NCBI RefSeq assembly: GCF_013315695.1
Contig: NZ_CP054353.1
Reading direction: 5' to 3' (one strand)
DNA: 64,000 nucleotides
DNA from: Escherichia coli
Lineage (GTDB): Bacteria; Pseudomonadota; Gammaproteobacteria; Enterobacterales; Enterobacteriaceae
The position numbers and the translations under genes were made by a program. Below the pieces are notes generated by a model. It was not told the origin of the DNA and did not search any database. It saw only the letters and a list, made by a program, of their open reading frames with translations. Position 1 is the stretch's first letter, and every line of letters starts with the position of its first letter. Positions 40,464-50,915 of the stretch are shown piece by piece.

Positions 40464-40739
40464 TTTGACTCCAGATCGGATGATGAAGGGCACGCCCTTA
40501 ACGACTTGACGACAGCGCGTTTTGGGCTACGCCGGAAAATTTGCCAACAATTTACCGCAAGCCGCGCGTCATGTACATGGAACATCCTTTTGCCGCTTCA
40601 GAAATCTCTGGATCATGCTCGCATGTTGCGCAATCTGCTCGCCCGTCCGCTGCGCTTTTCCTTATACTGAGACTGAGCGTCGATTCACCTGCAAACGGCG
40701 CATTTTAGAATAATCCTGACCTTGTGCGGAAGAGAAAAC

Positions 40740-41498
40740 ATGAAAATTCGCGCCTTATTGGTAGCAATGAGCGTGGCAACGGTACTGACCGGTTGCCAGA
40801 ATATGGACTCCAACGGACTGCTCTCATCAGGAGCGGAAGCTTTTCAGGCTTACAGTTTGAGTGATGCGCAGGTGAAAACCCTGAGCGATCAGGCATGTCA
40901 GGAGATGGACAGCAAGGCGACGATTGCGCCAACCAATAGCGAATACGCTAAACGTCTGACAACTATTGCCAATGCGCTAGGCAACAATATCAACGGTCAG
41001 CCGGTGAATTACAAAGTGTATATGGCGAAGGATGTGAACGCCTTTGCAATGGCTAACGGCTGTATCCGCGTCTATAGCGGGCTGATGGATATGATGACAG
41101 ATAACGAAGTCGAAGCGGTGATCGGTCACGAGATGGGGCACGTAGCGTTAGGCCATGTGAAGAAAGGGATGCAGGTGGCACTTGGTACAAATGCCGTACG
41201 AGTAGCTGCGGCCTCTGCGGGCGGGATTGTCGGCAGTTTATCTCAATCACAACTCGGTGATCTGGGCGAGAAATTAGTTAATTCGCAATTCTCCCAGCGC
41301 CAGGAAGCAGAAGCCGATGATTATTCTTACGATCTTCTGCGCCAACGCGGCATCAGCCCGGCAGGTCTTGCCACCAGCTTTGAAAAACTGGCAAAACTGG
41401 AAGGAGGCCGTCAAAGCTCAATGTTTGACGACCATCCAGCATCCGCCGAACGCGCCCAGCATATTCGCGATCGTATGAGCGCGGATGGGATAAAGTAA
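40740..41498 (+). CDS. loiP: Outer-membrane metalloprotease lipoprotein LoiP/YggG (252 aa)
   Basis: Start MKIRALLVAMSVATVLTGCQNMD...; HEMGH zinc motif. Confidence 0.95.
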   Translation: MKIRALLVAMSVATVLTGCQNMDSNGLLSSGAEAFQAYSLSDAQVKTLSDQACQEMDSKATIAPTNSEYAKRLTTIANALGNNINGQPVNYKVYMAKDVNAFAMANGCIRVYSGLMDMMTDNEVEAVIGHEMGHVALGHVKKGMQVALGTNAVRVAAASAGGIVGSLSQSQLGDLGEKLVNSQFSQRQEAEADDYSYDLLRQRGISPAGLATSFEKLAKLEGGRQSSMFDDHPASAERAQHIRDRMSADGIK

Positions 41499-41553: not shown

Positions 41554-42306
41554 TCAGAGTAGTGATTTCACTTTATTTAGCAAAACGGCTACATCATCCG
41601 GTCGGGTATATCCCGTATCAGGGTCTATAATCGAGCTGTAAACATGTGGCATAATGCGCGGCACCCCCGCCTCCAGACAAGTTTTCAGAATCACACTGAA
41701 GTTATCCAAATCAATCCCGCCAGTCGGCTCAATCAGCGTCATACCATTGCGCGCCGCCGTGGTCGCCAGCGCGTATAGCTCCGGAAGCGACCTCTCGCCG
41801 CCCATCGGAAAGAACTTCGCCGCGTGTGCGCCCATATCTAGCATCATTCGCACCGCCGTATCGCAGGAGACGCGGGCTGGCGTACCCTGGCTGCTGCTAA
41901 CGCCGGTGGAAATCAGCACTTCGCCCGGCGTCCCCGTCGGGCTAACCAGCGCGTTGACATGGGTCTGCTCACCGCCCGTAGCCGCAAGCGCGCCTGCCGC
42001 GAACCCACAACCGGTAAAGGTCTGGTTAACGTGTGCTGGATGAATCTGCGCCGCAATCATCGCAGCTTTGTAATACTGCGCCGGGTCACCCGCCCCCAGA
42101 CCTACTGAAATGGACGGTATTTCCGCCATCCAACGTTTAACTTCCTGGATCCCCTCATCCACCGAGGAGAACTGCGCGGAAAGCACGCCAATCACTGCGT
42201 GGCCTTCGGCGGCGTCAAAGATTTCACGGGCATTGGCGATATCTTTCGCCAGCACATTAATTGCCACACGATTACGATAGAAATTAATCTTTTGCATGAT
42301 CTGCAA
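41554..42306 (-). CDS. KDPG-aldolase-family protein, DgaF-like (250 aa)
   Basis: Eda-like active-site context GAHAAKFFPMGG; last gene of the PTS operon. Confidence 0.75.
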   Translation of the reverse strand: MQIMQKINFYRNRVAINVLAKDIANAREIFDAAEGHAVIGVLSAQFSSVDEGIQEVKRWMAEIPSISVGLGAGDPAQYYKAAMIAAQIHPAHVNQTFTGCGFAAGALAATGGEQTHVNALVSPTGTPGEVLISTGVSSSQGTPARVSCDTAVRMMLDMGAHAAKFFPMGGERSLPELYALATTAARNGMTLIEPTGGIDLDNFSVILKTCLEAGVPRIMPHVYSSIIDPDTGYTRPDDVAVLLNKVKSLL

Positions 42307-43393
42307 TCTCCTTCAGTCGCGCCACGATAAGTGCCATTTCCCCTTCCGCCACCGTACGCGGATCAAGGCTAAAAACGCCCTGGTGGAGGTTATACCGCCG
42401 TGCATAAATCGCGATATCGCCACCACGCAGTTGCGCTTCGACGACGCGAGCGTCAACTCCCAATTCCTGCGCATTTACTCGAATACGAATACGCCAGATT
42501 GCACGCCCGGCTTCATCCTGCTCAATATCAGCCGTTAACCCGTGAATCGCAGAAATCGCTTCAACCACTGGCTGGAGCTGTTCCGCGGTGATGACTGCCT
42601 GCCCCTGGTGATAATTCTCCAGCGCGTAAACCAGCCCAACCATGTTCTCCTTGCCGATTTTCATCGCCTTGGCAATGCCGTGATGCTGCGCTTTGCAGGC
42701 TGCAATCCAGATTTTTTTACCAGTGATAAACCCGGAGGTCGGCGCGTTAAAGGCTTTTGCGCCGCTGTAGACCACCATATCCGCTCCACTCACCACCCAG
42801 GCACGTAAATCCTCTTCGGCGGCGGCATCGACAATCAGCGGCAGGTTGTACATCTGCGCGACATGTGCGAAGTCCTCGATGTTCAACATTCCCTTCTGCA
42901 CGCAGTGATGCGACTTCACATACAGCAGCGCGGCGGTCGCGTCGGTAATGGCACTCTCCAGCTGCCAGAGAGCCGCCAGGTTACTTGAACCCACCTCCAC
43001 AACGCGCCCGCCACCTAAGCGGATCGCGCTGAGGATCGATGCGCCGTAATCGACGTTATGGCCGCGCAGCATCACCACTTCATTGGCCATGCCGGAGCTA
43101 TCCGGCATGAGCGCCACCCGGGCCTTGTCGCCGCGGGTAATGGCGGCGGCGACAGCGATGGCGATCCCTGCTGAGGCACAGGAGGTAACGTAGCTATCCT
43201 CCGCCCCGGTAAAGCGAGAGACCAGCTCGCCGGTTTTGTCCACCAGCTGGTCAATCTCCACGAAAGAGGATGCCGCGCGCGCGGTGGCCTGCATCACCTC
43301 CAGCGCGACGCTGGAGACGCCGAGAATCGTCATCTTGCCGCAGGCGTTAATCACCTGTTTCAGTCCCAGTTGTTGATAGATATTCTGCGTCAT
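42284..43393 (-). CDS. SelA-like PLP-dependent enzyme, DgaE-like (369 aa)
   Basis: Product MTQNIYQQLGLKQVINACGKMTILGVSSVALEVMQA... resembles the SelA/DgaE fold family. Confidence 0.75.
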   Translation of the reverse strand: MTQNIYQQLGLKQVINACGKMTILGVSSVALEVMQATARAASSFVEIDQLVDKTGELVSRFTGAEDSYVTSCASAGIAIAVAAAITRGDKARVALMPDSSGMANEVVMLRGHNVDYGASILSAIRLGGGRVVEVGSSNLAALWQLESAITDATAALLYVKSHHCVQKGMLNIEDFAHVAQMYNLPLIVDAAAEEDLRAWVVSGADMVVYSGAKAFNAPTSGFITGKKIWIAACKAQHHGIAKAMKIGKENMVGLVYALENYHQGQAVITAEQLQPVVEAISAIHGLTADIEQDEAGRAIWRIRIRVNAQELGVDARVVEAQLRGGDIAIYARRYNLHQGVFSLDPRTVAEGEMALIVARLKEIADHAKD

Positions 43394-43396
43394 GGC

Positions 43397-44254
43397 TTAC
43401 AGCACTCCCAGCAGCGAGCAGACCACGCTCAACGCCACAATCGACAGCAGAATCGTGGTGTAACGCGGACCCTTTTTCACCAAATAGAAGTAGATGGCGA
43501 ACACTGCCGCCAGCGGCAGCAGGCCGGGCGCGATGGAGTCCAGAATCTGCTGTACCACCACTTCAGAGCCTTTCAGTGCGCTAATTTTTAAAGGTGAGGT
43601 TATCTTGACAAAGCTCGCGGATAGCGCGCCCATCATGATAAGCCCCAGTACATTAGCGCCGTAGATAAGCTCCTTGATGCGCCCCCCCTGCAGCAGGCTG
43701 ATAATCGAATCGCGCCCCAGCGTATAGCCCTTGTGCACCATGCCGTAGCTGATTGCCAGCGTAATCGCCGGGTAGAGAATCAGCGGCAAAATACCGCCCA
43801 TCGCGCTGCCATTGGCGGCGAACGGGATAAAAATAGCAATCAACAGCGGCATCACGGCCGCCCAGATGATGGAGTCGCCCATTCCGGCCAGCGGCCCCAT
43901 CAGGCCGGTTTTAATCCCGGTGATAGAGGCATCGTTAATCGCCTCGCCGCGGGTCTTTTGCTCTTCCATGGCGATGGAGATCCCTTGGATCACCGCGCCA
44001 AACGTCTGCTCTGAGTTGAAGAAGTTCAGATGGCGTTTTAACGCCTCCACCTGCTCCTCCTTTTGCGGATAGAGCTTTTTAATAATCGGCGTCATCGAGG
44101 CGCAGAAAATCAGGCTCTGTAAACGCTCATATGAGCTGGAAACTTCCGCGCCAAGCCAGTAGATAAACCACGCTTTGGTGATATCCGCTTTGGTCAGCGC
44201 CCCGGACTCCCGCGCGCGCTCCACCAGTTCATGCTGCATTACGTCGCCGCTCAT
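43397..44254 (-). CDS. PTS mannose-family EIID component (285 aa)
   Basis: Membrane protein typical of ManZ-type IID. Confidence 0.85.
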   Translation of the reverse strand: MSGDVMQHELVERARESGALTKADITKAWFIYWLGAEVSSSYERLQSLIFCASMTPIIKKLYPQKEEQVEALKRHLNFFNSEQTFGAVIQGISIAMEEQKTRGEAINDASITGIKTGLMGPLAGMGDSIIWAAVMPLLIAIFIPFAANGSAMGGILPLILYPAITLAISYGMVHKGYTLGRDSIISLLQGGRIKELIYGANVLGLIMMGALSASFVKITSPLKISALKGSEVVVQQILDSIAPGLLPLAAVFAIYFYLVKKGPRYTTILLSIVALSVVCSLLGVL

Positions 44255-45003
44255 TATGCCGCTCCTTCATTTTTCGCCAGGCCTTTAATCAGGAAGGCCA
44301 CGCAGGTGCCGAAAATCGCCATCGCCATGATGTCCACCTTGAGGTACAGCACCGCGAAGAATCCGCCGATAAACCACGGCAGTAGGCTCTTTTTACCAAT
44401 CACCATAATGGTGATGGCGAAGCCCAGCGCCGGGAGAATCCCGCCCATGATTTCAAACGAGTGGGTCAGCCAGTGCGGCATCAGCTTGAGGAAACTTTCC
44501 ACTACGTTCTGGCCGAAGTAGTTGGCGGCGAACACCACTGGGAAACGTAGCACCAGCCCCAGCAGCGCCGGGTAGAGAAAGGCGCAGCGCATAATGGCTG
44601 ATATATTGGCCGTTTCCGCGTGTTTATCGGCCATATGCACCCAGGCCGCATTTAGCGTGCGACGCAACTGGTCGAGGAATACGCCGATAACGCCAAATGG
44701 AATCGCCAGTGCAATCGCCAGGTTCGGGTCCATATTGGCCTTAACGGCGATAGGAATGGCGATACAGGCCGCCAGCGCCGGGTCTGACGGCACATTGCCG
44801 CCTGGCGTTGAGGTCACACCCAGATATACCAACTGCATCCCCGCGCCGATAATCATCGCCGCAGGCATGTTGCCGAGCAGCAGGCCGACAAAGACTGCCA
44901 CCACCACTGGCTGTAACAGCATGGCGGAGAAGGTATAGCCAAGGCGCAACCGGGCAAACCAGTAATACAGCCCCATCAGGCTTGCAAAAAGTAAGGTATC
45001 CAT
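44254..45003 (-). CDS. PTS mannose-family EIIC component (249 aa)
   Basis: Polytopic membrane protein MDTLLFASLMGLYYWFARLRLGYTF... Confidence 0.85.
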   Translation of the reverse strand: MDTLLFASLMGLYYWFARLRLGYTFSAMLLQPVVVAVFVGLLLGNMPAAMIIGAGMQLVYLGVTSTPGGNVPSDPALAACIAIPIAVKANMDPNLAIALAIPFGVIGVFLDQLRRTLNAAWVHMADKHAETANISAIMRCAFLYPALLGLVLRFPVVFAANYFGQNVVESFLKLMPHWLTHSFEIMGGILPALGFAITIMVIGKKSLLPWFIGGFFAVLYLKVDIMAMAIFGTCVAFLIKGLAKNEGAA

Positions 45004-45028
45004 AATTTGTTATCCCATGTTCAGAGGG

Positions 45029-45514
45029 TCAGAATTTTTTCAGGATATCGTCCAGCGACTGCGGCTTATCTTCCGGGATGGTCTGGAAAACAGCCTTAAT
45101 GCCGCGACTTTTCAAATCGTTAAGAATGCCAACGTCTTTTTCATCCAGAGTTATGTTCTGGAACACCGCTTTACGGTTTGGCCCGCCGCCTAAGCCGCCA
45201 ACCTGAATATCAGCCACGTCAAAGCCCTGCTGCACCGCTTCCTGAATCGCCGCCAGCGACGGGAACAGCACCAGCACGTTGCCGTCGCCCAGCTGGTTCT
45301 CTTTCCACGCGGCCGCGAAGCTCTGGTTGCTGAAGCAGTCCACTTTGATATTCGGCGGCGCGGCCATCAGGTAGATATTTTTCATAAACGGATCGGCGTC
45401 CAGCTCGTCGCTGACCACCGCAATACGGTTGGCCTGGGATTGCCCCACCCACTTCGTCACCACCTGTCCGTGGATAAGACGGCTGTCAATGCGACATAAC
45501 ACGATGTTTGCCAT
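45029..45514 (-). CDS. PTS mannose-family EIIB component (161 aa)
   Basis: MANIVLCRIDSRLIHGQVVTKWVG..., the ManX IIB-domain signature with phosphorylatable His. Confidence 0.85.
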   Translation of the reverse strand: MANIVLCRIDSRLIHGQVVTKWVGQSQANRIAVVSDELDADPFMKNIYLMAAPPNIKVDCFSNQSFAAAWKENQLGDGNVLVLFPSLAAIQEAVQQGFDVADIQVGGLGGGPNRKAVFQNITLDEKDVGILNDLKSRGIKAVFQTIPEDKPQSLDDILKKF

Positions 45515-45524
45515 ACGATTTTCC

Positions 45525-45953
45525 TTACTGTTGTAATTGACGAATATGGGAGACGACGTCCAGGCAACTGTTGCGCCCAGCTTCCACCAGATCGGCCACG
45601 CAGGCGGTCAGTGGGCCATGTTCGCGCTTGTCCAGCGCCTCCAGCAGCAGCGAGGCATTAAGCCCGGAGATCACCGCCACCGGATAATCGGCGCTCAGCC
45701 GCGCCGCCACGTTAGAGGTGGTGCCGCCGATAAAATCGGTCACGATAAGAGAACCTTCTGGCATGGTTTTCACCACGGCTTCGACGCGCTGGTAAAACTC
45801 GCCCAGCGTATCGACAGGCATCAGCGCGATTTCCGTCACGCCTTCGATTTCGCCCATCACCATGCGCAGACTGTTGCAGAGCTGCAGCCCCCAGCCGCCG
45901 TGAGTTAGCAGCAGAATTTCAGGTAACGGATGAATAGGTACAGTTGTGGTCAA
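45525..45953 (-). CDS. PTS mannose-family EIIA component (142 aa), TTG start
   Basis: Product MTTTVPIHPLPEILLLTHGGWG...; RBS aaggagg 5 nt upstream of TTG. Confidence 0.8.
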   Translation of the reverse strand: MTTTVPIHPLPEILLLTHGGWGLQLCNSLRMVMGEIEGVTEIALMPVDTLGEFYQRVEAVVKTMPEGSLIVTDFIGGTTSNVAARLSADYPVAVISGLNASLLLEALDKREHGPLTACVADLVEAGRNSCLDVVSHIRQLQQ

Positions 45954-45992
45954 AATAGCCTCCTTTGCTCCAGTGTTTACATTTCATCAGGA

Positions 45993-46007
45993 GCAAAGGA
46001 CGTGCCA
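45993..46007 (-). promoter_or_regulatory. Sigma-54 (RpoN) -24/-12 promoter driving the PTS operon
   Basis: Minus strand reads TGGCAC-GTCCT-TTGC (perfect GG-N10-GC spacing) about 40 bp upstream of the EIIA start, downstream of the sigma-54 activator gene. Confidence 0.7.
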
Positions 46008-46071
46008 GAATTTGTGTCACGCACAGAGGAAATGAGATTGGATGGGGCGTTAAGCCCCGTAAACCAGGGGA

Positions 46072-48870
46072 TCAGCTGTAGAGCAGTTCGTAGATATAAA
46101 AATATTCTGCGTCCGATAAACGGATAGCGTAAGCCTCTTCAATCGGCAAAAAGGAGGATTTGATGACGCTAAAGGCACGAGCGTCCAGATCAAGCCGGTT
46201 TTCTAGCGCCATCTGTAACGGTTTGCGGTTAATCACGATACGCTCGACCATGCAGCAGCAGTGGATCAGAAAACGTAGTGTCACCTGGCGGCTCGGTTTC
46301 AGGGAGAGCGTGTTGGTTAAGTGGTTCAGAACGTCCTCGATCTCTTTCAGAATTCGCTGCGGGTTGAGCACCGAAATATGGTTGATGATGCTCTCCATGG
46401 TCAGCGCGCTGATAAAACGCATGGCGCTGCGCTCCATCTCCAGTCGGCGCTCGCTGCTTGAGAGATCCGGCGTCAGCAGGCTGAGCACCAGCTCTGGCCC
46501 TTGCTCGGAAAACAGTTCCTCCAGCGAGATAAACGGTATATCCGGCAGTCCCGGCTGGAAGGTGCCGACGATCCCTGCCAGCCGTTCACTGGCATTAAGC
46601 GCCTGCTGAATACGCTCCAGGCTGCGCACCTCGTTATAGTCGAGAATCACCATACGCGTGTCCTGCGACATCAGCTCGCCAAAGCTCTCCTCCAGCACCT
46701 TTTTGATCTTTTCCGCCGTCCCCATTCCGGTTATACATGAGATAACCAGCACTTTGCCACCGCTCTCTTGCTGCGGCGTGCAGAGCCGACAAGGGATATT
46801 TTTACTCTGCATAAGCACAGCCAATTGCGATAGATCGCCAGTTTCGTAGCTTAAATCCAGCCCCACCTCCAGCAGGCTGGTCAGAGTGATATTTGGCAAC
46901 AACAGAACGTCAATCTGGAACAGCTTGCTGATGGTGCTGCCAAAATGGACCAGCGATCCGATATCCACCATCAGTATCAGCCGCTGCCAGCACCGGTCCT
47001 GAATCATCCGGGTCAGGGTTTCCAGGGTGTCATGCACCGACTGCTCAAATGGCATATCAATTGCGTAGAACAGATCGCGCTCCAGCACCCGATTCACATA
47101 TTGCGCCTGGCTCGTTGCGGTGGTCGCACCGTGAGCGATTAGAATCACGCCGCAATCCGGGCTGGTGTCGATGCGCTGGCGGTAGTGGCGACACTCTTTC
47201 AGGAACAGGCACAGCCAGACCACCTCCGTCGCCGGGCACTGAATATGCAACAACTCATTGATTTTGCGGCACAGAAGTGTCGCATTGTCATACTCATCTT
47301 TACAGCGATCCAGAATCAGGCTGGATGAATAGAGTTGAGGTATAAGCCCTCGCCGCACATAGCCAATCAGCGCAAGAAAGTGTTTACGTAACGGGTTCGC
47401 CAGGTTTTCTGGCAATGTAAATCCTAATACCTGCTCCACGTAACCGATCAGCAGCGTCACACGCTCCTCAATTTGATCGCCATAGCGCGGTGGATGCGCC
47501 GCACTATGGCGGCTATAAAGACCATATTCAAAAATCGAACTGAGTTTGTTTTTCAGGATAGCCAGCGTTTCTGCGGGCGGCACGTTACTGTTGCGCAGAT
47601 TGACATATTCACGAGTCAGGAAACTGTAAAACAGGTCGCTCTCTTCTATTTCCGCGCTGGTCGCCAACGAATTTTTTAACGCGGGCAACGTACGCGCATC
47701 CACGTTCAGACGATCTTTACCACCAAACAACGCATCGACCAGCAGACGCTGCTCTGGCGTGGTATTAAACGACATCTCCGCCAGTCGTTTATCTAACTCT
47801 AGCGTATCATTACGCTCGGTCATTCCCGACGCCCACGCCTGCGCGCACAAGAACTGAATATCACTTTTAAGCTGGCCGATATTGCCTTCCAGGGATTTAC
47901 TTAACAACCAATGCAAGAGCGTTTTATCAAGGCTTATGGTACGTTCAATTTTACGACTTTCACGCTGAAAGAAGCTTACAATCAATTCGAGCTGCTCCTC
48001 GACCGAACGCTGGCGAATACCCGGTAAGTCAATACATACCTGGATACGCCGCTGGAAGGTACGCAATAGTGCCGAGTTGACCGACTCTGTAGTGGCGCAA
48101 ATAAGGCGCACCGAAATTGAATATGTTGGCCCACTTGAACCAAGTGGGCGGTATTCACCTTTATCGAGAATAGAAAAGAGCTTCTCTTGTCCTTCGTACG
48201 GGAGGCGATGCACTTCATCCAGAAGTAAATAGCCTCCGTCAGCTTGCTCCACCAATCCCGTTTTATTCTCACTTGCCCCGGTAAATGCCCCCTTATGGTG
48301 ACCAAACAGATGTGAGGAAAGCAACTCCGGATTATGAGCATATTCGGCACAGTTAAAGTAAACCAACGGAGGTAGCGAACCTATGGTGTGCTTGCAAGCG
48401 AAGCAATGCATTAACTCAGCAAAGAATGTTTTGCCAACACCAGATGCCCCGGTTAACAGCACATGTAGTCCGTGGGGATAGAGCACCGCTGCGCGGCCTT
48501 TTTCTACCGCATCACGGAGACTACGGTCGTATCCGATAAGTCCGGAAAACGGATCATCATCTGTATATTTTTCTTTCTTTGGCAATAAACTAGCCACTGA
48601 ATGAACTATGCATTCGCAATCATCCAGTTTTCGATTAATGAGCAATTCTAGTGCGTGACGATGTAGAAAAAAAACAGGACGTCCCTGACTTTTTACCACC
48701 AGGCCTTCATTCCATAATTGATTAAGATCTTTACTAACCGAGTTGCGTGCCAGCCCAAGGTTAAAACCAATCGCCTCAGCAGTAAATGCTTTCTCCTTCG
48801 CTAAATCAGACAGTTCCAGCCCATACGTCAGCCGCTCCAGCTCCTTGTGAATAACATCAATCCGTCTCAT
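46072..48870 (-). CDS. Sigma-54-dependent LevR/DgaR-like activator with AAA+ and PRD/EIIA-type regulatory domains (about 932 aa)
   Basis: Walker A GASGVGKT, GAFTGA motif (HHKGAFTGAS); first ATG (MRRIDVIHKE...) chosen, GTG 14 codons upstream also possible. Confidence 0.85.
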   Translation of the reverse strand: MRRIDVIHKELERLTYGLELSDLAKEKAFTAEAIGFNLGLARNSVSKDLNQLWNEGLVVKSQGRPVFFLHRHALELLINRKLDDCECIVHSVASLLPKKEKYTDDDPFSGLIGYDRSLRDAVEKGRAAVLYPHGLHVLLTGASGVGKTFFAELMHCFACKHTIGSLPPLVYFNCAEYAHNPELLSSHLFGHHKGAFTGASENKTGLVEQADGGYLLLDEVHRLPYEGQEKLFSILDKGEYRPLGSSGPTYSISVRLICATTESVNSALLRTFQRRIQVCIDLPGIRQRSVEEQLELIVSFFQRESRKIERTISLDKTLLHWLLSKSLEGNIGQLKSDIQFLCAQAWASGMTERNDTLELDKRLAEMSFNTTPEQRLLVDALFGGKDRLNVDARTLPALKNSLATSAEIEESDLFYSFLTREYVNLRNSNVPPAETLAILKNKLSSIFEYGLYSRHSAAHPPRYGDQIEERVTLLIGYVEQVLGFTLPENLANPLRKHFLALIGYVRRGLIPQLYSSSLILDRCKDEYDNATLLCRKINELLHIQCPATEVVWLCLFLKECRHYRQRIDTSPDCGVILIAHGATTATSQAQYVNRVLERDLFYAIDMPFEQSVHDTLETLTRMIQDRCWQRLILMVDIGSLVHFGSTISKLFQIDVLLLPNITLTSLLEVGLDLSYETGDLSQLAVLMQSKNIPCRLCTPQQESGGKVLVISCITGMGTAEKIKKVLEESFGELMSQDTRMVILDYNEVRSLERIQQALNASERLAGIVGTFQPGLPDIPFISLEELFSEQGPELVLSLLTPDLSSSERRLEMERSAMRFISALTMESIINHISVLNPQRILKEIEDVLNHLTNTLSLKPSRQVTLRFLIHCCCMVERIVINRKPLQMALENRLDLDARAFSVIKSSFLPIEEAYAIRLSDAEYFYIYELLYS

Positions 48871-49127: not shown

Positions 49128-50048
49128 TTACTCGCCCTTTTTCGCCGCCTGAATATACAGCATTTCCAGCGCCAGCGTCGCCGCAGCCAGAGCGGTGATT
49201 TCCGACTGATCGTATGCCGGAGCCACTTCCACTACGTCCATCCCAACAATGTTGAGATCTTTCAGGCCGCGTACCAGTTTAATAGCGCGATCGGAGGTCA
49301 GGCCGCCAATTACTGGCGTACCGGTTCCCGGCGCGAAAGCAGGATCCAGGCAGTCGATATCAAAGGTCAGGTAAACCGGCATATCACCTACAATCTGTTT
49401 CACCTGAGCGATAACGTCATCCACGCTGCGATCGTTCACCTGGCAGGCGTCCAGCACGGTAAAACCGTTGTCTTTATCAAACTCGGTACGAATACCAATC
49501 TGCACGGAATGATTCGGGTCGATCAGACCTTCTTTCGGCGCGGTATAGAACATGGTGCCGTGGTCAAATTCACAACCGTTCGCATAGGTGTCGGTGTGGG
49601 CGTCAAAGTGTACCAGCGCCATTTTGCCGAAATGCTTCGCATGAGCACGCAGCAGCGGCAGCGTAACAAAGTGGTCACCACCGAAGGAGAGCATACGCTT
49701 ACCGGCAGCCAGCAGCTTCTCGGCGTGCGCCTGCAGCTTCTCGCTCATCTCACGGGCATCGCCGAAGGCATATACCAGATCGCCGCAGTCCACGACGTTC
49801 AGGCGCTCACGCATGTCGAAATTCCACGGGAAGCGATTGTGTTCCCAGGCCAGATTCGTCGAAACCTGACGGATCGCTGCCGGACCGTGGCGACCACCCG
49901 CACGACCAGAAGTGGCCATATCGAACGGCACGCCAGTAATCACCCAGTCAGCATCGCTGTCATATGGCTGGAAGTTCATCGGCAGGCGTAAAAAACCAAA
50001 GGCGTTGGAAACCAGTGAGTTATCGTATTGATGACCTAAGGTGCTCAT
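49128..50048 (-). CDS. speB: Agmatinase (306 aa)
   Basis: ORF product [45 protein letters not shown]... Confidence 0.97.
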
Positions 50049-50183: not shown

Positions 50184-50915
50184 CTATTTCCGACACGGTG
50201 GCGGCGCATAGCCATTGTTGTCCGCCGGAAAGGCTTGTCCAGAGCACGGCGGCAGCGCGTTTTGCGCCGGGCCTTGTAATTCAAAGGCGGCAAAGCCGAT
50301 TACACCGGTATTACGCACATCGCCTTGCGCCGAATTGGCTGCGTAGGAATCAGCAACGTTGGCGAACTGAAAAGCCGCTTCGGTATGTTTATCTTTGCGG
50401 AATCCTTTAATCGCTAACGAATCTCCGGCATTCACAATATAGCCGTTGTTATTCAGCGAACCTTGCTTGCCGTTCAGCACATCCAGGCCATCAACCGTAG
50501 CAACGATCTCGTAGTTGGTATTACGACTGTAATTGCGGACATATAATTGATAATTCATTCCTACTCTGGCATGGACAATATAGCGTGGTTCATTATTGGA
50601 TGAATCATAAACCCGCGTAATAGGTAGAGAATTAAAATTACCATCGCGAATAGCATATTCCAGTTCGTTAATACGAATGCTATAAACGCGGTCGTAGCCC
50701 GAAGGAACAGTAGTCGAATAACTAATAACGATCATCTCTGCCGGATCGCGCCAGGCTCGCTCAGCAGATACGCCCTGAACCGATGAGTGCACATCCCCAC
50801 CCCAGGCGGTGCCGACATTGCCCGATGTACTGCTATTATACTGCGCATTACTGGAACAACCGGCCAGCAGCACGGCTAATGCTATCAACGCGCTACGTAC
50901 TTTCCATTTTTTCAT
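50184..50915 (-). CDS. Lipoprotein of unknown function (243 aa) between speB and speA
   Basis: Signal peptide plus lipobox MKKWKVRSALIALAVLLAGCSS; no family recognised by eye. Confidence 0.7.
   Translation of the reverse strand: MKKWKVRSALIALAVLLAGCSSNAQYNSSTSGNVGTAWGGDVHSSVQGVSAERAWRDPAEMIVISYSTTVPSGYDRVYSIRINELEYAIRDGNFNSLPITRVYDSSNNEPRYIVHARVGMNYQLYVRNYSRNTNYEIVATVDGLDVLNGKQGSLNNNGYIVNAGDSLAIKGFRKDKHTEAAFQFANVADSYAANSAQGDVRNTGVIGFAAFELQGPAQNALPPCSGQAFPADNNGYAPPPCRK

What the first reader, a model, noticed from the sequence alone, without database searches (positions are those of the whole stretch)
45993..46007. Textbook sigma-54 promoter (TGGCAC-N5-TTGC) upstream of the PTS EIIA gene
The minus strand reads TGGCACGTCCTTTGC with exact -24 GG / -12 GC spacing, positioned between the activator gene and EIIA. 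It overlaps a 10-bp inverted repeat (tcctttgctc ... gagcaaagga) that includes the RBS region.
Basis: seen in the sequence. Interest (0 to 1): 0.45.

Follow-up and report, generated by a model that had tools for sequence, protein, structure and literature searches.

The report
Known sigma-54 promoter of dga operon
This is the E. coli copy of a sigma-54 promoter already characterised in Salmonella, which switches on genes for using the sugar acid D-glucosaminate; the call is correct but ordinary, and the only new items are candidate activator-binding boxes around it.

Summary
TGGCACGTCCTTTGC lies at 46007..45993 on the minus strand, between a LevR-type activator gene and a mannose-family PTS EIIA gene. 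The inverted repeat is also real and is 11 bp, not 10. The window is E. coli, and the locus is dgaR(dagR)-dgaABCDEF, the D-glucosaminate PTS/catabolic operon. The Salmonella orthologue, TGGCACAACCTTTGCTCT, matches the window's site at 15 of 18 bases and is already shown to bind sigma-54 and to be rpoN-dependent. All 43 orthologous loci keep the GG/GC elements while the spacer drifts. Three extras emerged. (1) An invariant GTGACAC box lies 6 bp upstream of the -24 element and is conserved as far as Firmicutes. Related boxes sit inside the 3' end of dgaR, where rare codons are frozen. Their core matches the UAS predicted for clostridial LevR, so they are candidate DgaR sites, which a 2016 review lists as not known. 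(2) The inverted repeat is Escherichia-specific. Its 5' arm lies upstream of the predicted start site, so it can only fold in read-through RNA, where it buries the ribosome-binding site. This is the anti-SD "insulator" type already described for sigma-54 promoters. (3) The terminator-like hairpin after dgaR is weak in Escherichia.

The parts
46072..48870 (-). dgaR (dagR): LevR-type sigma-54 enhancer-binding protein, 932 aa
   Evidence: NCBIfam equivalog DagR scores 1523 bits against a cutoff of 1400. Pfam finds Sigma54_activat and PRD domains. GAFTGA is at residue 194 and Walker A at 141. RefSeq annotation agrees.
46210..46293 (-). Stretch of dgaR (about 28 codons, PRD2 region) with the strongest suppression of synonymous change in the whole gene
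   Evidence: The two lowest 12-codon windows have obs/exp 0.40 and 0.56, against a gene mean of 1.01 and SD of 0.14.
46278..46284 (-). Candidate DgaR box 1, GTGACAC (about -303..-297 from the predicted start site), inside dgaR codons Val-Thr
   Evidence: GTG-ACA is invariant in all proteobacterial loci. This includes genomes with GC3 of 0.9, where ACA makes up 2-5% of Thr codons.
46213..46219 (-). Candidate DgaR box 2, GTTACAG (about -238..-232), inside dgaR codons Pro-Leu-Gln
   Evidence: The rare Leu codon TTA (CTA in two beta-proteobacteria) is invariant. The sequence is 9/10 identical to the non-coding Jeongeupia box GTGACAGATG.
46163..46169 (+). Degenerate box 3: sense strand GCGTCAT where relatives have GTGTCAT, so the motif lies on the antisense strand
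   Evidence: The box is present at -162 in nearly all Enterobacterales but carries one mismatch in Escherichia.
46044..46058 (-). Weak GC stem-loop GGGGC-TTAAC-GCCCC just after the dgaR stop codon; terminator-like but without a T-run
   Evidence: A hairpin sits at this position in nearly all orthologues, with different stem sequences (dG -12 to -23 kcal/mol). It is a canonical terminator in the Firmicutes loci. Within Escherichia, stem substitutions are uncompensated.
46021..46043 (-). Pyrimidine-rich tract between the hairpin and the proximal box
   Evidence: The sequence drifts between species, but C+T content stays at 0.6-0.96 in the 25 nt after the hairpin across Enterobacterales.
46014..46020 (-). 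Promoter-proximal box GTGACAC (-39..-33), 6 bp upstream of TGG
   Evidence: The box is present in 18 of 19 aligned Enterobacterales and absent or degenerate only in two Serratia and the Gilliamella loci. It is also present 4-6 bp from TGG in Chitiniphilus, Jeongeupia (TGACAG), Maledivibacter and Lucifera.
45990..46007 (-). Sigma-54 promoter PdgaA, TGGCACGTCCTTTGCTCC (GG 46006..46005, GC 45994..45993)
   Evidence: It matches Salmonella PdgaA at 15 of 18 positions. It is conserved in all orthologous loci.
45980..45982 (-). Predicted transcription start (inferred from -12/-24 geometry, not measured)
   Evidence: This is inference from the GG/GC positions. The conserved TGTAAAC sequence begins here in many orthologues.
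45990..46000 (-). 5' arm of the 11-bp inverted repeat, TCCTTTGCTCC; it acts as an anti-SD and lies upstream of the predicted start site
45961..45971 (-). 3' arm of the inverted repeat, GGAGCAAAGGA, overlapping the SD AAGGAGG (45965..45959)
   Evidence: P(SD unpaired) is 0.40 in the sigma-54 RNA and 0.05 in read-through RNA.
45525..45953 (-). dgaA, PTS EIIA (mannose family), TTG start
   Evidence: Pfam EIIA-man. The RefSeq CDS has the same coordinates.
41554..45514 (-). dgaB, dgaC, dgaD (EIIB/C/D), dgaE (D-glucosaminate-6-phosphate ammonia lyase) and dgaF (KDPG aldolase)
   Evidence: Pfam. NCBIfam equivalogs DgaE (686 bits, cutoff 600) and DagF (351 bits, cutoff 300). RefSeq annotation.

Best explanation
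The site is PdgaA, the sigma-54 (RpoN) -24/-12 promoter of the dgaABCDEF operon, which encodes a D-glucosaminate PTS permease, an ammonia lyase and a KDPG aldolase. The locus is an accessory island carried by about 10% of E. coli. RNA polymerase with sigma-54 forms a closed complex on GG (46006..46005) and GC (45994..45993). The LevR-type activator DgaR, encoded immediately upstream, uses ATP to open the complex, and transcription starts near 45981. By analogy with Salmonella DgaR and B. subtilis LevR, HPr~P phosphorylation activates DgaR. EIIB(Dga)~P phosphorylation of PRD2 inhibits it when no substrate is being transported. What is shown here: the sequence, its genomic context, its orthology to the Salmonella promoter and its conservation. 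What is shown in Salmonella by others: sigma-54 binding, rpoN dependence and DgaR dependence. What is inferred: the start-site position, the phospho-control in E. coli, and that DgaR binds the RTKACAS boxes at about -300, -235 and -36, with a fourth at about -185 in relatives. A secondary, Escherichia-specific layer also exists. The CT-rich -12 region is complementary to the dgaA ribosome-binding site. Transcripts reading through from dgaR would therefore fold a -22.5 kcal/mol hairpin that hides the RBS. Sigma-54-initiated transcripts lack the 5' arm and stay open.
For: Sequence and position. PSSM rank 1 for the 16-nt core. DagR, DgaE and DagF NCBIfam equivalogs above cutoff, plus EIIABCD. RefSeq annotation of identical E. 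coli loci. Salmonella dgaA site TGGCACAACCTTTGCTCT with ChIP-chip enrichment, 39-fold sigma-54-dependent induction of STM3772-66 and STM3773 (DgaR) as the activator (PMC3844500; PMC4987338). The -24/-12 elements are retained in all 43 orthologous loci from Enterobacterales, Orbales, Neisseriales and Firmicutes while the spacer varies. In the intergenic alignment, the only blocks invariant or nearly so across all 19 sequences are the TGACAC box, TGGCA, TTGC and the SD. GAFTGA and Walker motifs are present in DgaR. For the boxes: 18-fold enrichment upstream of the promoter; frozen rare codons; non-coding copies in beta-proteobacteria (P = 0.0005-0.004); the same GTGTCA/GTGTAA cores in predicted clostridial LevR UAS sites (PMC6615313 Table S3). 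For the hairpin: and the mechanism described in bioRxiv 10.1101/086108.
Against: There are no transcription data for E. coli itself. The bare 15-mer pattern is not significant by chance alone (19 of 100 shuffles). The 18-mer PSSM score (13.7) is below every training site because of CC at positions 17-18, so the E. coli promoter may be weaker than the Salmonella one. I defined the box motif post hoc on related sequences. The coding boxes lie in a fully conserved protein segment and persist in beta-proteobacteria even though these also have separate non-coding boxes. E. coli has lost the -162 box. A bEBP site at -36 is atypical. The hairpin is not conserved outside Escherichia and one Gilliamella. 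It beats the composition-matched control only marginally (7% of shuffles do as well).
Confidence: 0.92

Rival explanations
1. The inverted repeat is only a by-product. A CT-rich spacer and -12 region (CCTTTGCTCC) is inherently partly complementary to a strong SD (GGAG...AAGGAGG). On this view the 11-bp match in Escherichia arose by drift and has no regulatory role.
For: The repeat is absent from Citrobacter, Klebsiella, Pantoea, Erwinia, Trabulsiella and others, which have GAGCCAGGAGG at the RBS. SD accessibility in read-through RNA differs from shuffled-upstream controls in only a few lineages. All E. coli carriers are nearly identical, so there is no within-species test.
Against: The hairpin is far more stable than shuffles (z = -3.77, 0 of 200). 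A comparable 11-bp repeat with different outer bases arose independently in Gilliamella L044. In three Escherichia lineages the loop changed but the arms did not. Escherichia also has the weakest post-dgaR hairpin, which is where insulation would matter most. The mechanism is experimentally documented for glnKp.
Confidence: 0.5
2. The TGACAC-type boxes are not DgaR sites. The promoter-proximal box would be bound by another factor or be an extended promoter element. The coding boxes would be frozen for reasons unrelated to transcription, such as mRNA structure or translation of the PRD2 phosphorylation segment.
For: A bEBP site centred at -36 is unusual. The coding boxes fall in the 100% conserved IHCCCM / KPLQM segment. 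They persist in beta-proteobacteria, 100-240 bp further from the promoter, alongside non-coding boxes. The 2016 review gives no DgaR site.
Against: DgaR is the only regulator shared by these loci from Firmicutes to Proteobacteria. The box core equals the predicted LevR UAS core. The frozen codons are rare ones (ACA, TTA), which argues against codon-optimality selection. The proximal box spacing varies from 4 to 6 bp, which argues against a rigid sigma-54 contact.
Confidence: 0.35
3. dgaA-F are expressed mainly by read-through from the dgaR promoter or from a sigma-70 promoter, and the -24/-12 match is a non-productive sigma-54 binding site.
For: The E. coli post-dgaR hairpin is weak and lacks a T-run. 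Salmonella has many non-productive sigma-54 sites. The flanking CC lowers the 18-mer score.
Against: No sigma-70-like promoter is found in the spacer. The site is intergenic, correctly oriented and universally conserved. The Salmonella orthologue drives 39-fold sigma-54-dependent expression. Read-through RNA is predicted to have a buried RBS.
Confidence: 0.04
4. The match is a chance occurrence of the pattern with no function.
For: 19% of shuffled windows contain at least one exact match.
Against: Context, orthology to a validated promoter, and retention in 43 of 43 loci despite spacer turnover.
Confidence: 0.01

Closest known systems
Salmonella enterica Typhimurium PdgaA / DgaR-dgaABCDEF (STM3773, STM3772-3766; Miller et al. 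2013; Samuels et al. 2013)
   Same: The gene order is the same: dgaR, EIIA, EIIB, EIIC, EIID, dgaE, dgaF. NCBIfam equivalog matches hold for DagR, DgaE and DagF. The promoter 18-mer is identical at 15 of 18 positions (TGGCACGTCCTTTGCTCC versus TGGCACAACCTTTGCTCT). It sits in the same place between dgaR and dgaA.
   Different: The chromosomal site differs: here the island lies between speB and loiP. The two spacer bases and the last flanking base differ. The T-to-C change at position 18 completes an 11-bp inverted repeat with the RBS that close relatives such as Citrobacter lack. The E. coli promoter has not been tested experimentally.
Bacillus subtilis LevR / levanase operon and clostridial LevR and CelR systems
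   Same: [quoted passage not shown] It controls a mannose-family PTS operon from a -24/-12 promoter. Several short UAS boxes are present. The core GTGTCA/GTGTAA is shared with predicted clostridial LevR sites (PMC6615313 Table S3).
   Different: In those systems the UAS lies in non-coding DNA about 65-160 bp upstream of the promoter. In the dga system most boxes are inside the activator's own coding sequence, and one box abuts the -24 element.
Anti-SD 'insulator' encoded in sigma-54 promoters (glnKp; Levy et al., bioRxiv 10.1101/086108)
   Same: A CT-rich segment inside the promoter, upstream of its own start site, is complementary to the downstream SD. It can therefore silence translation only on read-through transcripts.
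   Different: Here the pairing is a long perfect 11-bp stem (16 pairs in the MFE structure) rather than 3-5 nt motifs. It is restricted to Escherichia and has not been tested.
NtrC 'governor' low-affinity sites near glnAp2
   Same: It would be a precedent for bEBP sites lying between the enhancer and the promoter that modulate rather than drive activation.
   Different: No evidence here shows that the dga proximal box is inhibitory. Its conservation across phyla suggests a core role.

Membership tests
Sigma-54 (RpoN) -24/-12 promoter | GG and GC dinucleotides separated by exactly 10 bp within TGGCAC-N5-TTGC | tested here: met
   TGGCACGTCCTTTGC at 46007..45993.
Sigma-54 (RpoN) -24/-12 promoter | Weight-matrix score within the range of experimentally supported promoters | tested here: inconclusive
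   The 16-nt core scores 18-19, above 21 of 28 training sites and rank 1 in the window. The 18-mer scores 13.7, below all training sites, because of the CC flank.
Sigma-54 (RpoN) -24/-12 promoter | Intergenic position, oriented toward the regulated operon, with a linked enhancer-binding protein carrying GAFTGA | tested here: met
   The site lies 65 bp after dgaR and 39 bp before dgaA on the same strand. GAFTGA is at DgaR residue 194.
Sigma-54 (RpoN) -24/-12 promoter | Conservation of the -24/-12 elements in orthologous loci | tested here: met
   Present in 43 of 43 loci; the spacer is variable.
Sigma-54 (RpoN) -24/-12 promoter | rpoN- and activator-dependent transcription starting about 12 nt downstream of GC | not testable with these tools
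   Sigma-54 binding and rpoN dependence are shown only for the Salmonella orthologue (PMC3844500). I found no E. coli data.
dga (D-glucosaminate) operon / DgaR regulon | DgaR, mannose-family EIIABCD, DgaE ammonia lyase and DgaF aldolase in one cluster | tested here: met
   NCBIfam equivalogs above cutoff: DagR 1523 (cutoff 1400), DgaE 686 (cutoff 600), DagF 351 (cutoff 300). Pfam finds the EII domains.
dga (D-glucosaminate) operon / DgaR regulon | Growth on and induction by D-glucosaminate | not testable with these tools
   Known for Salmonella (PMC4987338).
LevR-type UAS | Several copies of a short conserved box upstream of the promoter, matching the family's core | tested here: met
   RTKACAS boxes occur at 3.75 versus 0.21 per 320 bp. 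The cores GTGTCA/GTGTAA equal predicted clostridial LevR sites. The motif was defined post hoc.
LevR-type UAS | Physical binding by the activator and requirement for activation | not testable with these tools
   The DgaR UAS is listed as 'NK' in the 2016 review.
Sigma-54-promoter-encoded anti-SD insulator | CT-rich segment upstream of the promoter's own start site, complementary to the downstream SD, sequestering it only in read-through RNA | tested here: met
   11-bp perfect complement. Hairpin of -22.5 kcal/mol with z = -3.77, versus an unstructured sigma-54 leader. P(SD unpaired) 0.05 versus 0.40. In silico only.
Sigma-54-promoter-encoded anti-SD insulator | Evolutionary conservation of the pairing in orthologues | tested here: not met
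   Found only in Escherichia and one Gilliamella locus.

The most novel reading that the evidence does not exclude
The enhancer of DgaR may be built unusually. Two or three LevR-type boxes lie inside the 3' end of the activator's own gene, freezing rare codons from Enterobacterales to Neisseriales. A further box abuts the -24 element (-39..-33) and is conserved from Firmicutes to Proteobacteria. If DgaR occupies the proximal box, this would be a promoter-adjacent bEBP site that tethers or gates the activator next to the sigma-54 holoenzyme, rather than acting by long-range looping. In addition, Escherichia may have evolved a full anti-SD hairpin to compensate for a decaying dgaR terminator.
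Probability: 0.3. Interest if true: 0.5.

Novelty: already known. Interest (0 to 1): 0.22.

Why it matters
The promoter call adds little. It confirms that an accessory E. coli island, present in about 10% of complete genomes, carries the same sigma-54/DgaR-controlled D-glucosaminate system as Salmonella. E. coli is usually said to lack LevR-type activators, so this matters only for strain-level descriptions of the RpoN regulon. The candidate DgaR boxes are modestly useful. They give a concrete, testable proposal for a binding site that the literature lists as unknown. They are also an example of regulatory DNA constraining synonymous sites of the regulator's own gene. The Escherichia hairpin is a natural, unusually strong candidate for testing the read-through insulation idea.

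Tried and rejected
1. Miller et al. 2013 (PMC3754740), the primary dga paper, is not held. I therefore could not check whether it maps a start site or discusses a UAS.
2. One literature search with gene names was swamped by journal DOIs containing 'dgae' and gave nothing usable.
3. My first PSSM, with a tiny pseudocount, gave a misleadingly low score of 12.4. I re-ran it with several pseudocounts and motif lengths and report both outcomes.
4. My first synonymous-site statistic was not normalised for codon degeneracy. I redid it per amino acid.
5. A first regex for the KPLQ codons hit the wrong site in many loci. I re-anchored it.
6. I considered the proximal TGACAC box as a sigma-70 -35 element (TTGACA-like). 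I rejected this because there is no acceptable -10 hexamer at 16-18 bp, and the promoter scan finds nothing there.
7. I considered a CRP or IHF site in the spacer. By eye, no conserved match to either consensus appears in the alignment; I ran no formal scan.
8. The antisense sigma-54-like site inside dgaR (47050-47067) is not conserved outside Escherichia, so I treat it as incidental.
9. I did not fetch paralogous LevR-type loci such as gfr to ask whether a promoter-abutting box is general.

Full report
OBSERVATION. It is the only exact TGGCAC-N5-TTGC match in the window. The bare pattern is expected 0.23 times by chance, and 19 of 100 shuffles contain at least one match, so the pattern alone proves little. 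Allowing one mismatch gives 9 matches against 7.2 expected.

I left dgaA out. The 16-nt core TGGCACGTCCTTTGCT ranks first in the window. It scores above 21 of 28 training sites, and only 4% of random 64-kb windows reach that score. When the two flanking positions are included, the score drops to 13.7, below all training sites, because the site ends in CC where validated promoters have A or T. I report both outcomes. The sequence is a good core match with an atypical downstream flank.

The inverted repeat is also real and is 11 bp long: TCCTTTGCTCC (46000..45990) and GGAGCAAAGGA (45971..45961). It overlaps the AAGGAGG ribosome-binding site, which lies 5 nt before the TTG start of the EIIA gene at 45953.

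WHAT THE LOCUS IS. The genes on the minus strand, in order, are:
- a 932-aa protein with a sigma-54 interaction domain and a PRD domain;
- mannose-family EIIA, EIIB, EIIC and EIID;
- a SelA-like PLP enzyme;
- a KDGP aldolase.

NCBIfam equivalog models identify three of them above their curated cutoffs: DagR (1523 bits, cutoff 1400), D-glucosaminate-6-phosphate ammonia lyase DgaE (686, cutoff 600) and the aldolase DagF (351, cutoff 300). The 7.5-kb region is at least 99% identical in 560 of the 562 complete E. coli genomes that carry it, out of 5,426 in total. It is always chromosomal and is annotated dagR/dgaE/dagF. It lies between speB and loiP. The window is therefore E. coli, and the locus is the dgaR-dgaABCDEF island.

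ALREADY KNOWN IN SALMONELLA. Samuels et al. list the dgaA (STM3772) sigma-54 site as TGGCACAACCTTTGCTCT. It has a ChIP-chip ratio of 3.6 (wild type versus rpoN deletion) and a PSSM score of 20.3. The STM3772-66 operon is induced 39-fold in a sigma-54-dependent manner, and STM3773 (DgaR) is named as its activator. The review by Hartman et al. (PMC4987338) summarises the control logic. HPr~P activates DgaR. EII~P inhibits it when D-glucosaminate is absent. The review lists the DgaR binding site as 'NK'. The E. coli site is identical to the Salmonella site at 15 of 18 positions.

CONSERVATION. A scan of one genome per species returned 43 loci encoding DgaR relatives. They come from Citrobacter, Klebsiella, Pantoea, Erwinia, Trabulsiella, Hafnia, Serratia, Gilliamella, Jeongeupia, Chitiniphilus and two Firmicutes. 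Every locus has a TGG[CT]A[CT]-N5-[TC]TGC element between dgaR and dgaA. In Enterobacterales it begins at a nearly fixed 67-82 bp after the end of the dgaR match. The five spacer bases vary freely. In a 19-species alignment, the only blocks of the intergenic region that are invariant or nearly so are a TGACAC box, TGGCA, TTGC and the GGAG ribosome-binding site. DgaR carries the GAFTGA sigma-54 contact loop at residue 194, plus Walker A and B motifs.

MECHANISM. Steps shown here: the promoter sequence, its geometry, its linkage to a LevR-type activator and its conservation. Steps shown by others in Salmonella: sigma-54 binding, and rpoN and DgaR dependence. Steps inferred: a start site near 45981 (12 nt after the C of GC), and PTS phospho-control of DgaR in E. 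coli.

CANDIDATE ACTIVATOR SITES. This goes beyond the original finding. A GTGACAC box (46020..46014) sits 6 bp upstream of TGG. It is present in 18 of the 19 aligned Enterobacterales, absent or degenerate only in two Serratia and the Gilliamella loci. It is also present 4-6 bp from TGG in Chitiniphilus, in Jeongeupia (as TGACAG) and in both Firmicutes. In the Firmicutes it is the only sequence between the dgaR terminator and the -24 element.

In beta-proteobacteria the spacer is long and entirely non-coding. It contains three boxes per locus (P = 0.0005-0.004 against shuffles). In two species the upstream pair is inverted and 41 bp apart, despite different intervening sequence.

In Enterobacterales the corresponding upstream DNA is the 3' end of dgaR itself. 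After normalising per amino acid, the two lowest synonymous-variation windows of the whole gene both lie in its last ~75 codons. Their obs/exp values are 0.40 and 0.56, against a gene mean of 1.01 and SD of 0.14. Each window contains a box. GTG-ACA (Val-Thr) is invariant in every proteobacterial locus, even at GC3 of 0.9, where ACA makes up 2-5% of Thr codons. CCG-TTA-CAG uses a rare Leu codon that is equally frozen.

With the motif RTKACAS, the Enterobacterales map is fixed at -277(+), -212(+), -162(-) and -13(+) relative to the T of TGG. Density is 3.75 per 320 bp upstream of the promoter, against 0.21 elsewhere in the same loci. I defined this motif post hoc on related sequences, so that statistic is descriptive rather than a clean test.

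Independent support comes from Nie et al. (PMC6615313, Table S3). Their predicted clostridial LevR UAS sites are repeats of (T/A)GTGTCAAA and TGTGTGTAAA. These are the same GTGTCA and GTGTAA cores. The LevR-type activator CelR uses three UAS sites, and LevR binds near -125 (PMC10864463).

I therefore propose that these boxes are DgaR sites, with a probability of roughly 0.6. Points against are as follows:
- A site centred at -36 is atypical for a bEBP.
- The coding boxes lie in a fully conserved PRD2 segment.
- The coding boxes persist in beta-proteobacteria that also have non-coding boxes.
- E. coli itself has lost the -162 box (GCGTCAT).

THE INVERTED REPEAT. The 5' arm (46000..45990) lies upstream of the predicted start site, so it is absent from sigma-54-initiated mRNA. 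In an RNA that reads through from dgaR, the arms form a hairpin of -22.5 kcal/mol (z = -3.77; 0 of 200 shuffles are as stable), and this hairpin buries the ribosome-binding site. The sigma-54 leader is unstructured (-6.2 kcal/mol, z = +1.3). The predicted probability that the SD is unpaired is 0.40 in the sigma-54 RNA and 0.05 in read-through RNA. With a shuffled upstream segment it is 0.21, and 7% of shuffles do as well as the real sequence.

Levy et al. (bioRxiv 10.1101/086108) describe this mechanism experimentally for glnKp. CT-rich anti-SD motifs inside sigma-54 promoters silence translation only on read-through transcripts.

The repeat is not a conserved part of the dga system, however. 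Citrobacter, Klebsiella, Pantoea and the others have GAGCCAGGAGG at the RBS and no repeat. Only Escherichia and, independently, one Gilliamella locus have it.

A GC-rich hairpin follows the dgaR stop codon in almost all orthologues. Its stem sequence differs between lineages. It is a canonical terminator in the Firmicutes but usually lacks a T-run in Enterobacterales, where a pyrimidine-rich tract follows it. Escherichia has one of the weakest versions, and its stem substitutions are uncompensated. The promoter, the boxes and the repeat arms are unchanged across three Escherichia lineages. The idea that the full anti-SD hairpin compensates for a leaky terminator is plausible but speculative. 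I put functional insulation and by-product at about even odds.

VERDICT. The element is the E. coli orthologue of the known Salmonella PdgaA promoter, so it is already known and of low interest. What is new is a testable proposal for the DgaR enhancer, including a box that abuts the -24 element and is conserved across phyla, and a natural candidate for read-through insulation.

LIMITS. There are no E. coli expression data. The primary 2013 paper was not available. Box binding is untested.

Noticed in passing
window 47050-47067 (+), antisense inside dgaR: Second-best sigma-54-like site in the window, TGGCATATCAATTGCGTA (score 14-16). It is present only in Escherichia (window and L023) and not in other orthologues. 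It is probably an incidental intragenic site of the kind common in Salmonella.
   Followed up: partly
L004, L006, L009, L015, L035, L041, about 25-80 nt downstream of the promoter: A REP-like palindromic element (gccggatggcggcgtaaacgccttatccggcctac) is inserted between PdgaA and dgaA in several Citrobacter, Superficieibacter and Enterobacter loci. It lengthens the 5' UTR.
   Followed up: no
L024 versus L020: The assembly labelled 'Chryseobacterium sp. 18061' carries a dga locus nearly identical to that of 'Citrobacter sp. 18056' from the same study. This is probably contamination or mislabelling of the assembly.
   Followed up: no
window 50184-50915 (-): A 243-aa ORF between speA and speB has no Pfam match and is annotated as a hypothetical protein in RefSeq.
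   Followed up: no
window 41554-48870 and flanks 40722-41498, 49128-50048: The whole dga cluster is an accessory island between loiP and speB. It is present in 562 of 5,426 complete E. coli genomes, always once and always chromosomal. Published statements that E. coli has no orthologue of DgaR therefore do not hold for about 10% of complete E. coli genomes.
   Followed up: partly
window 45972-45981 (-) and orthologues: A TGTAAAC(G) motif at the predicted transcript 5' end is conserved in many Enterobacterales (tgtaaacgtaa). Its meaning is unknown. It resembles the GTGTAA/TTACA box variant.
   Followed up: no
window 46077-46110 (-), last 11 codons of dgaR: The AT-rich stretch GAATATTTTTATATCTACGAA also shows reduced synonymous change (obs/exp 0.73; TTT, TAT and TAC codons nearly invariant). 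It lies about -100 to -125 from the predicted start site, where LevR-type UAS or bending sites usually sit. It is unexplained.
   Followed up: partly
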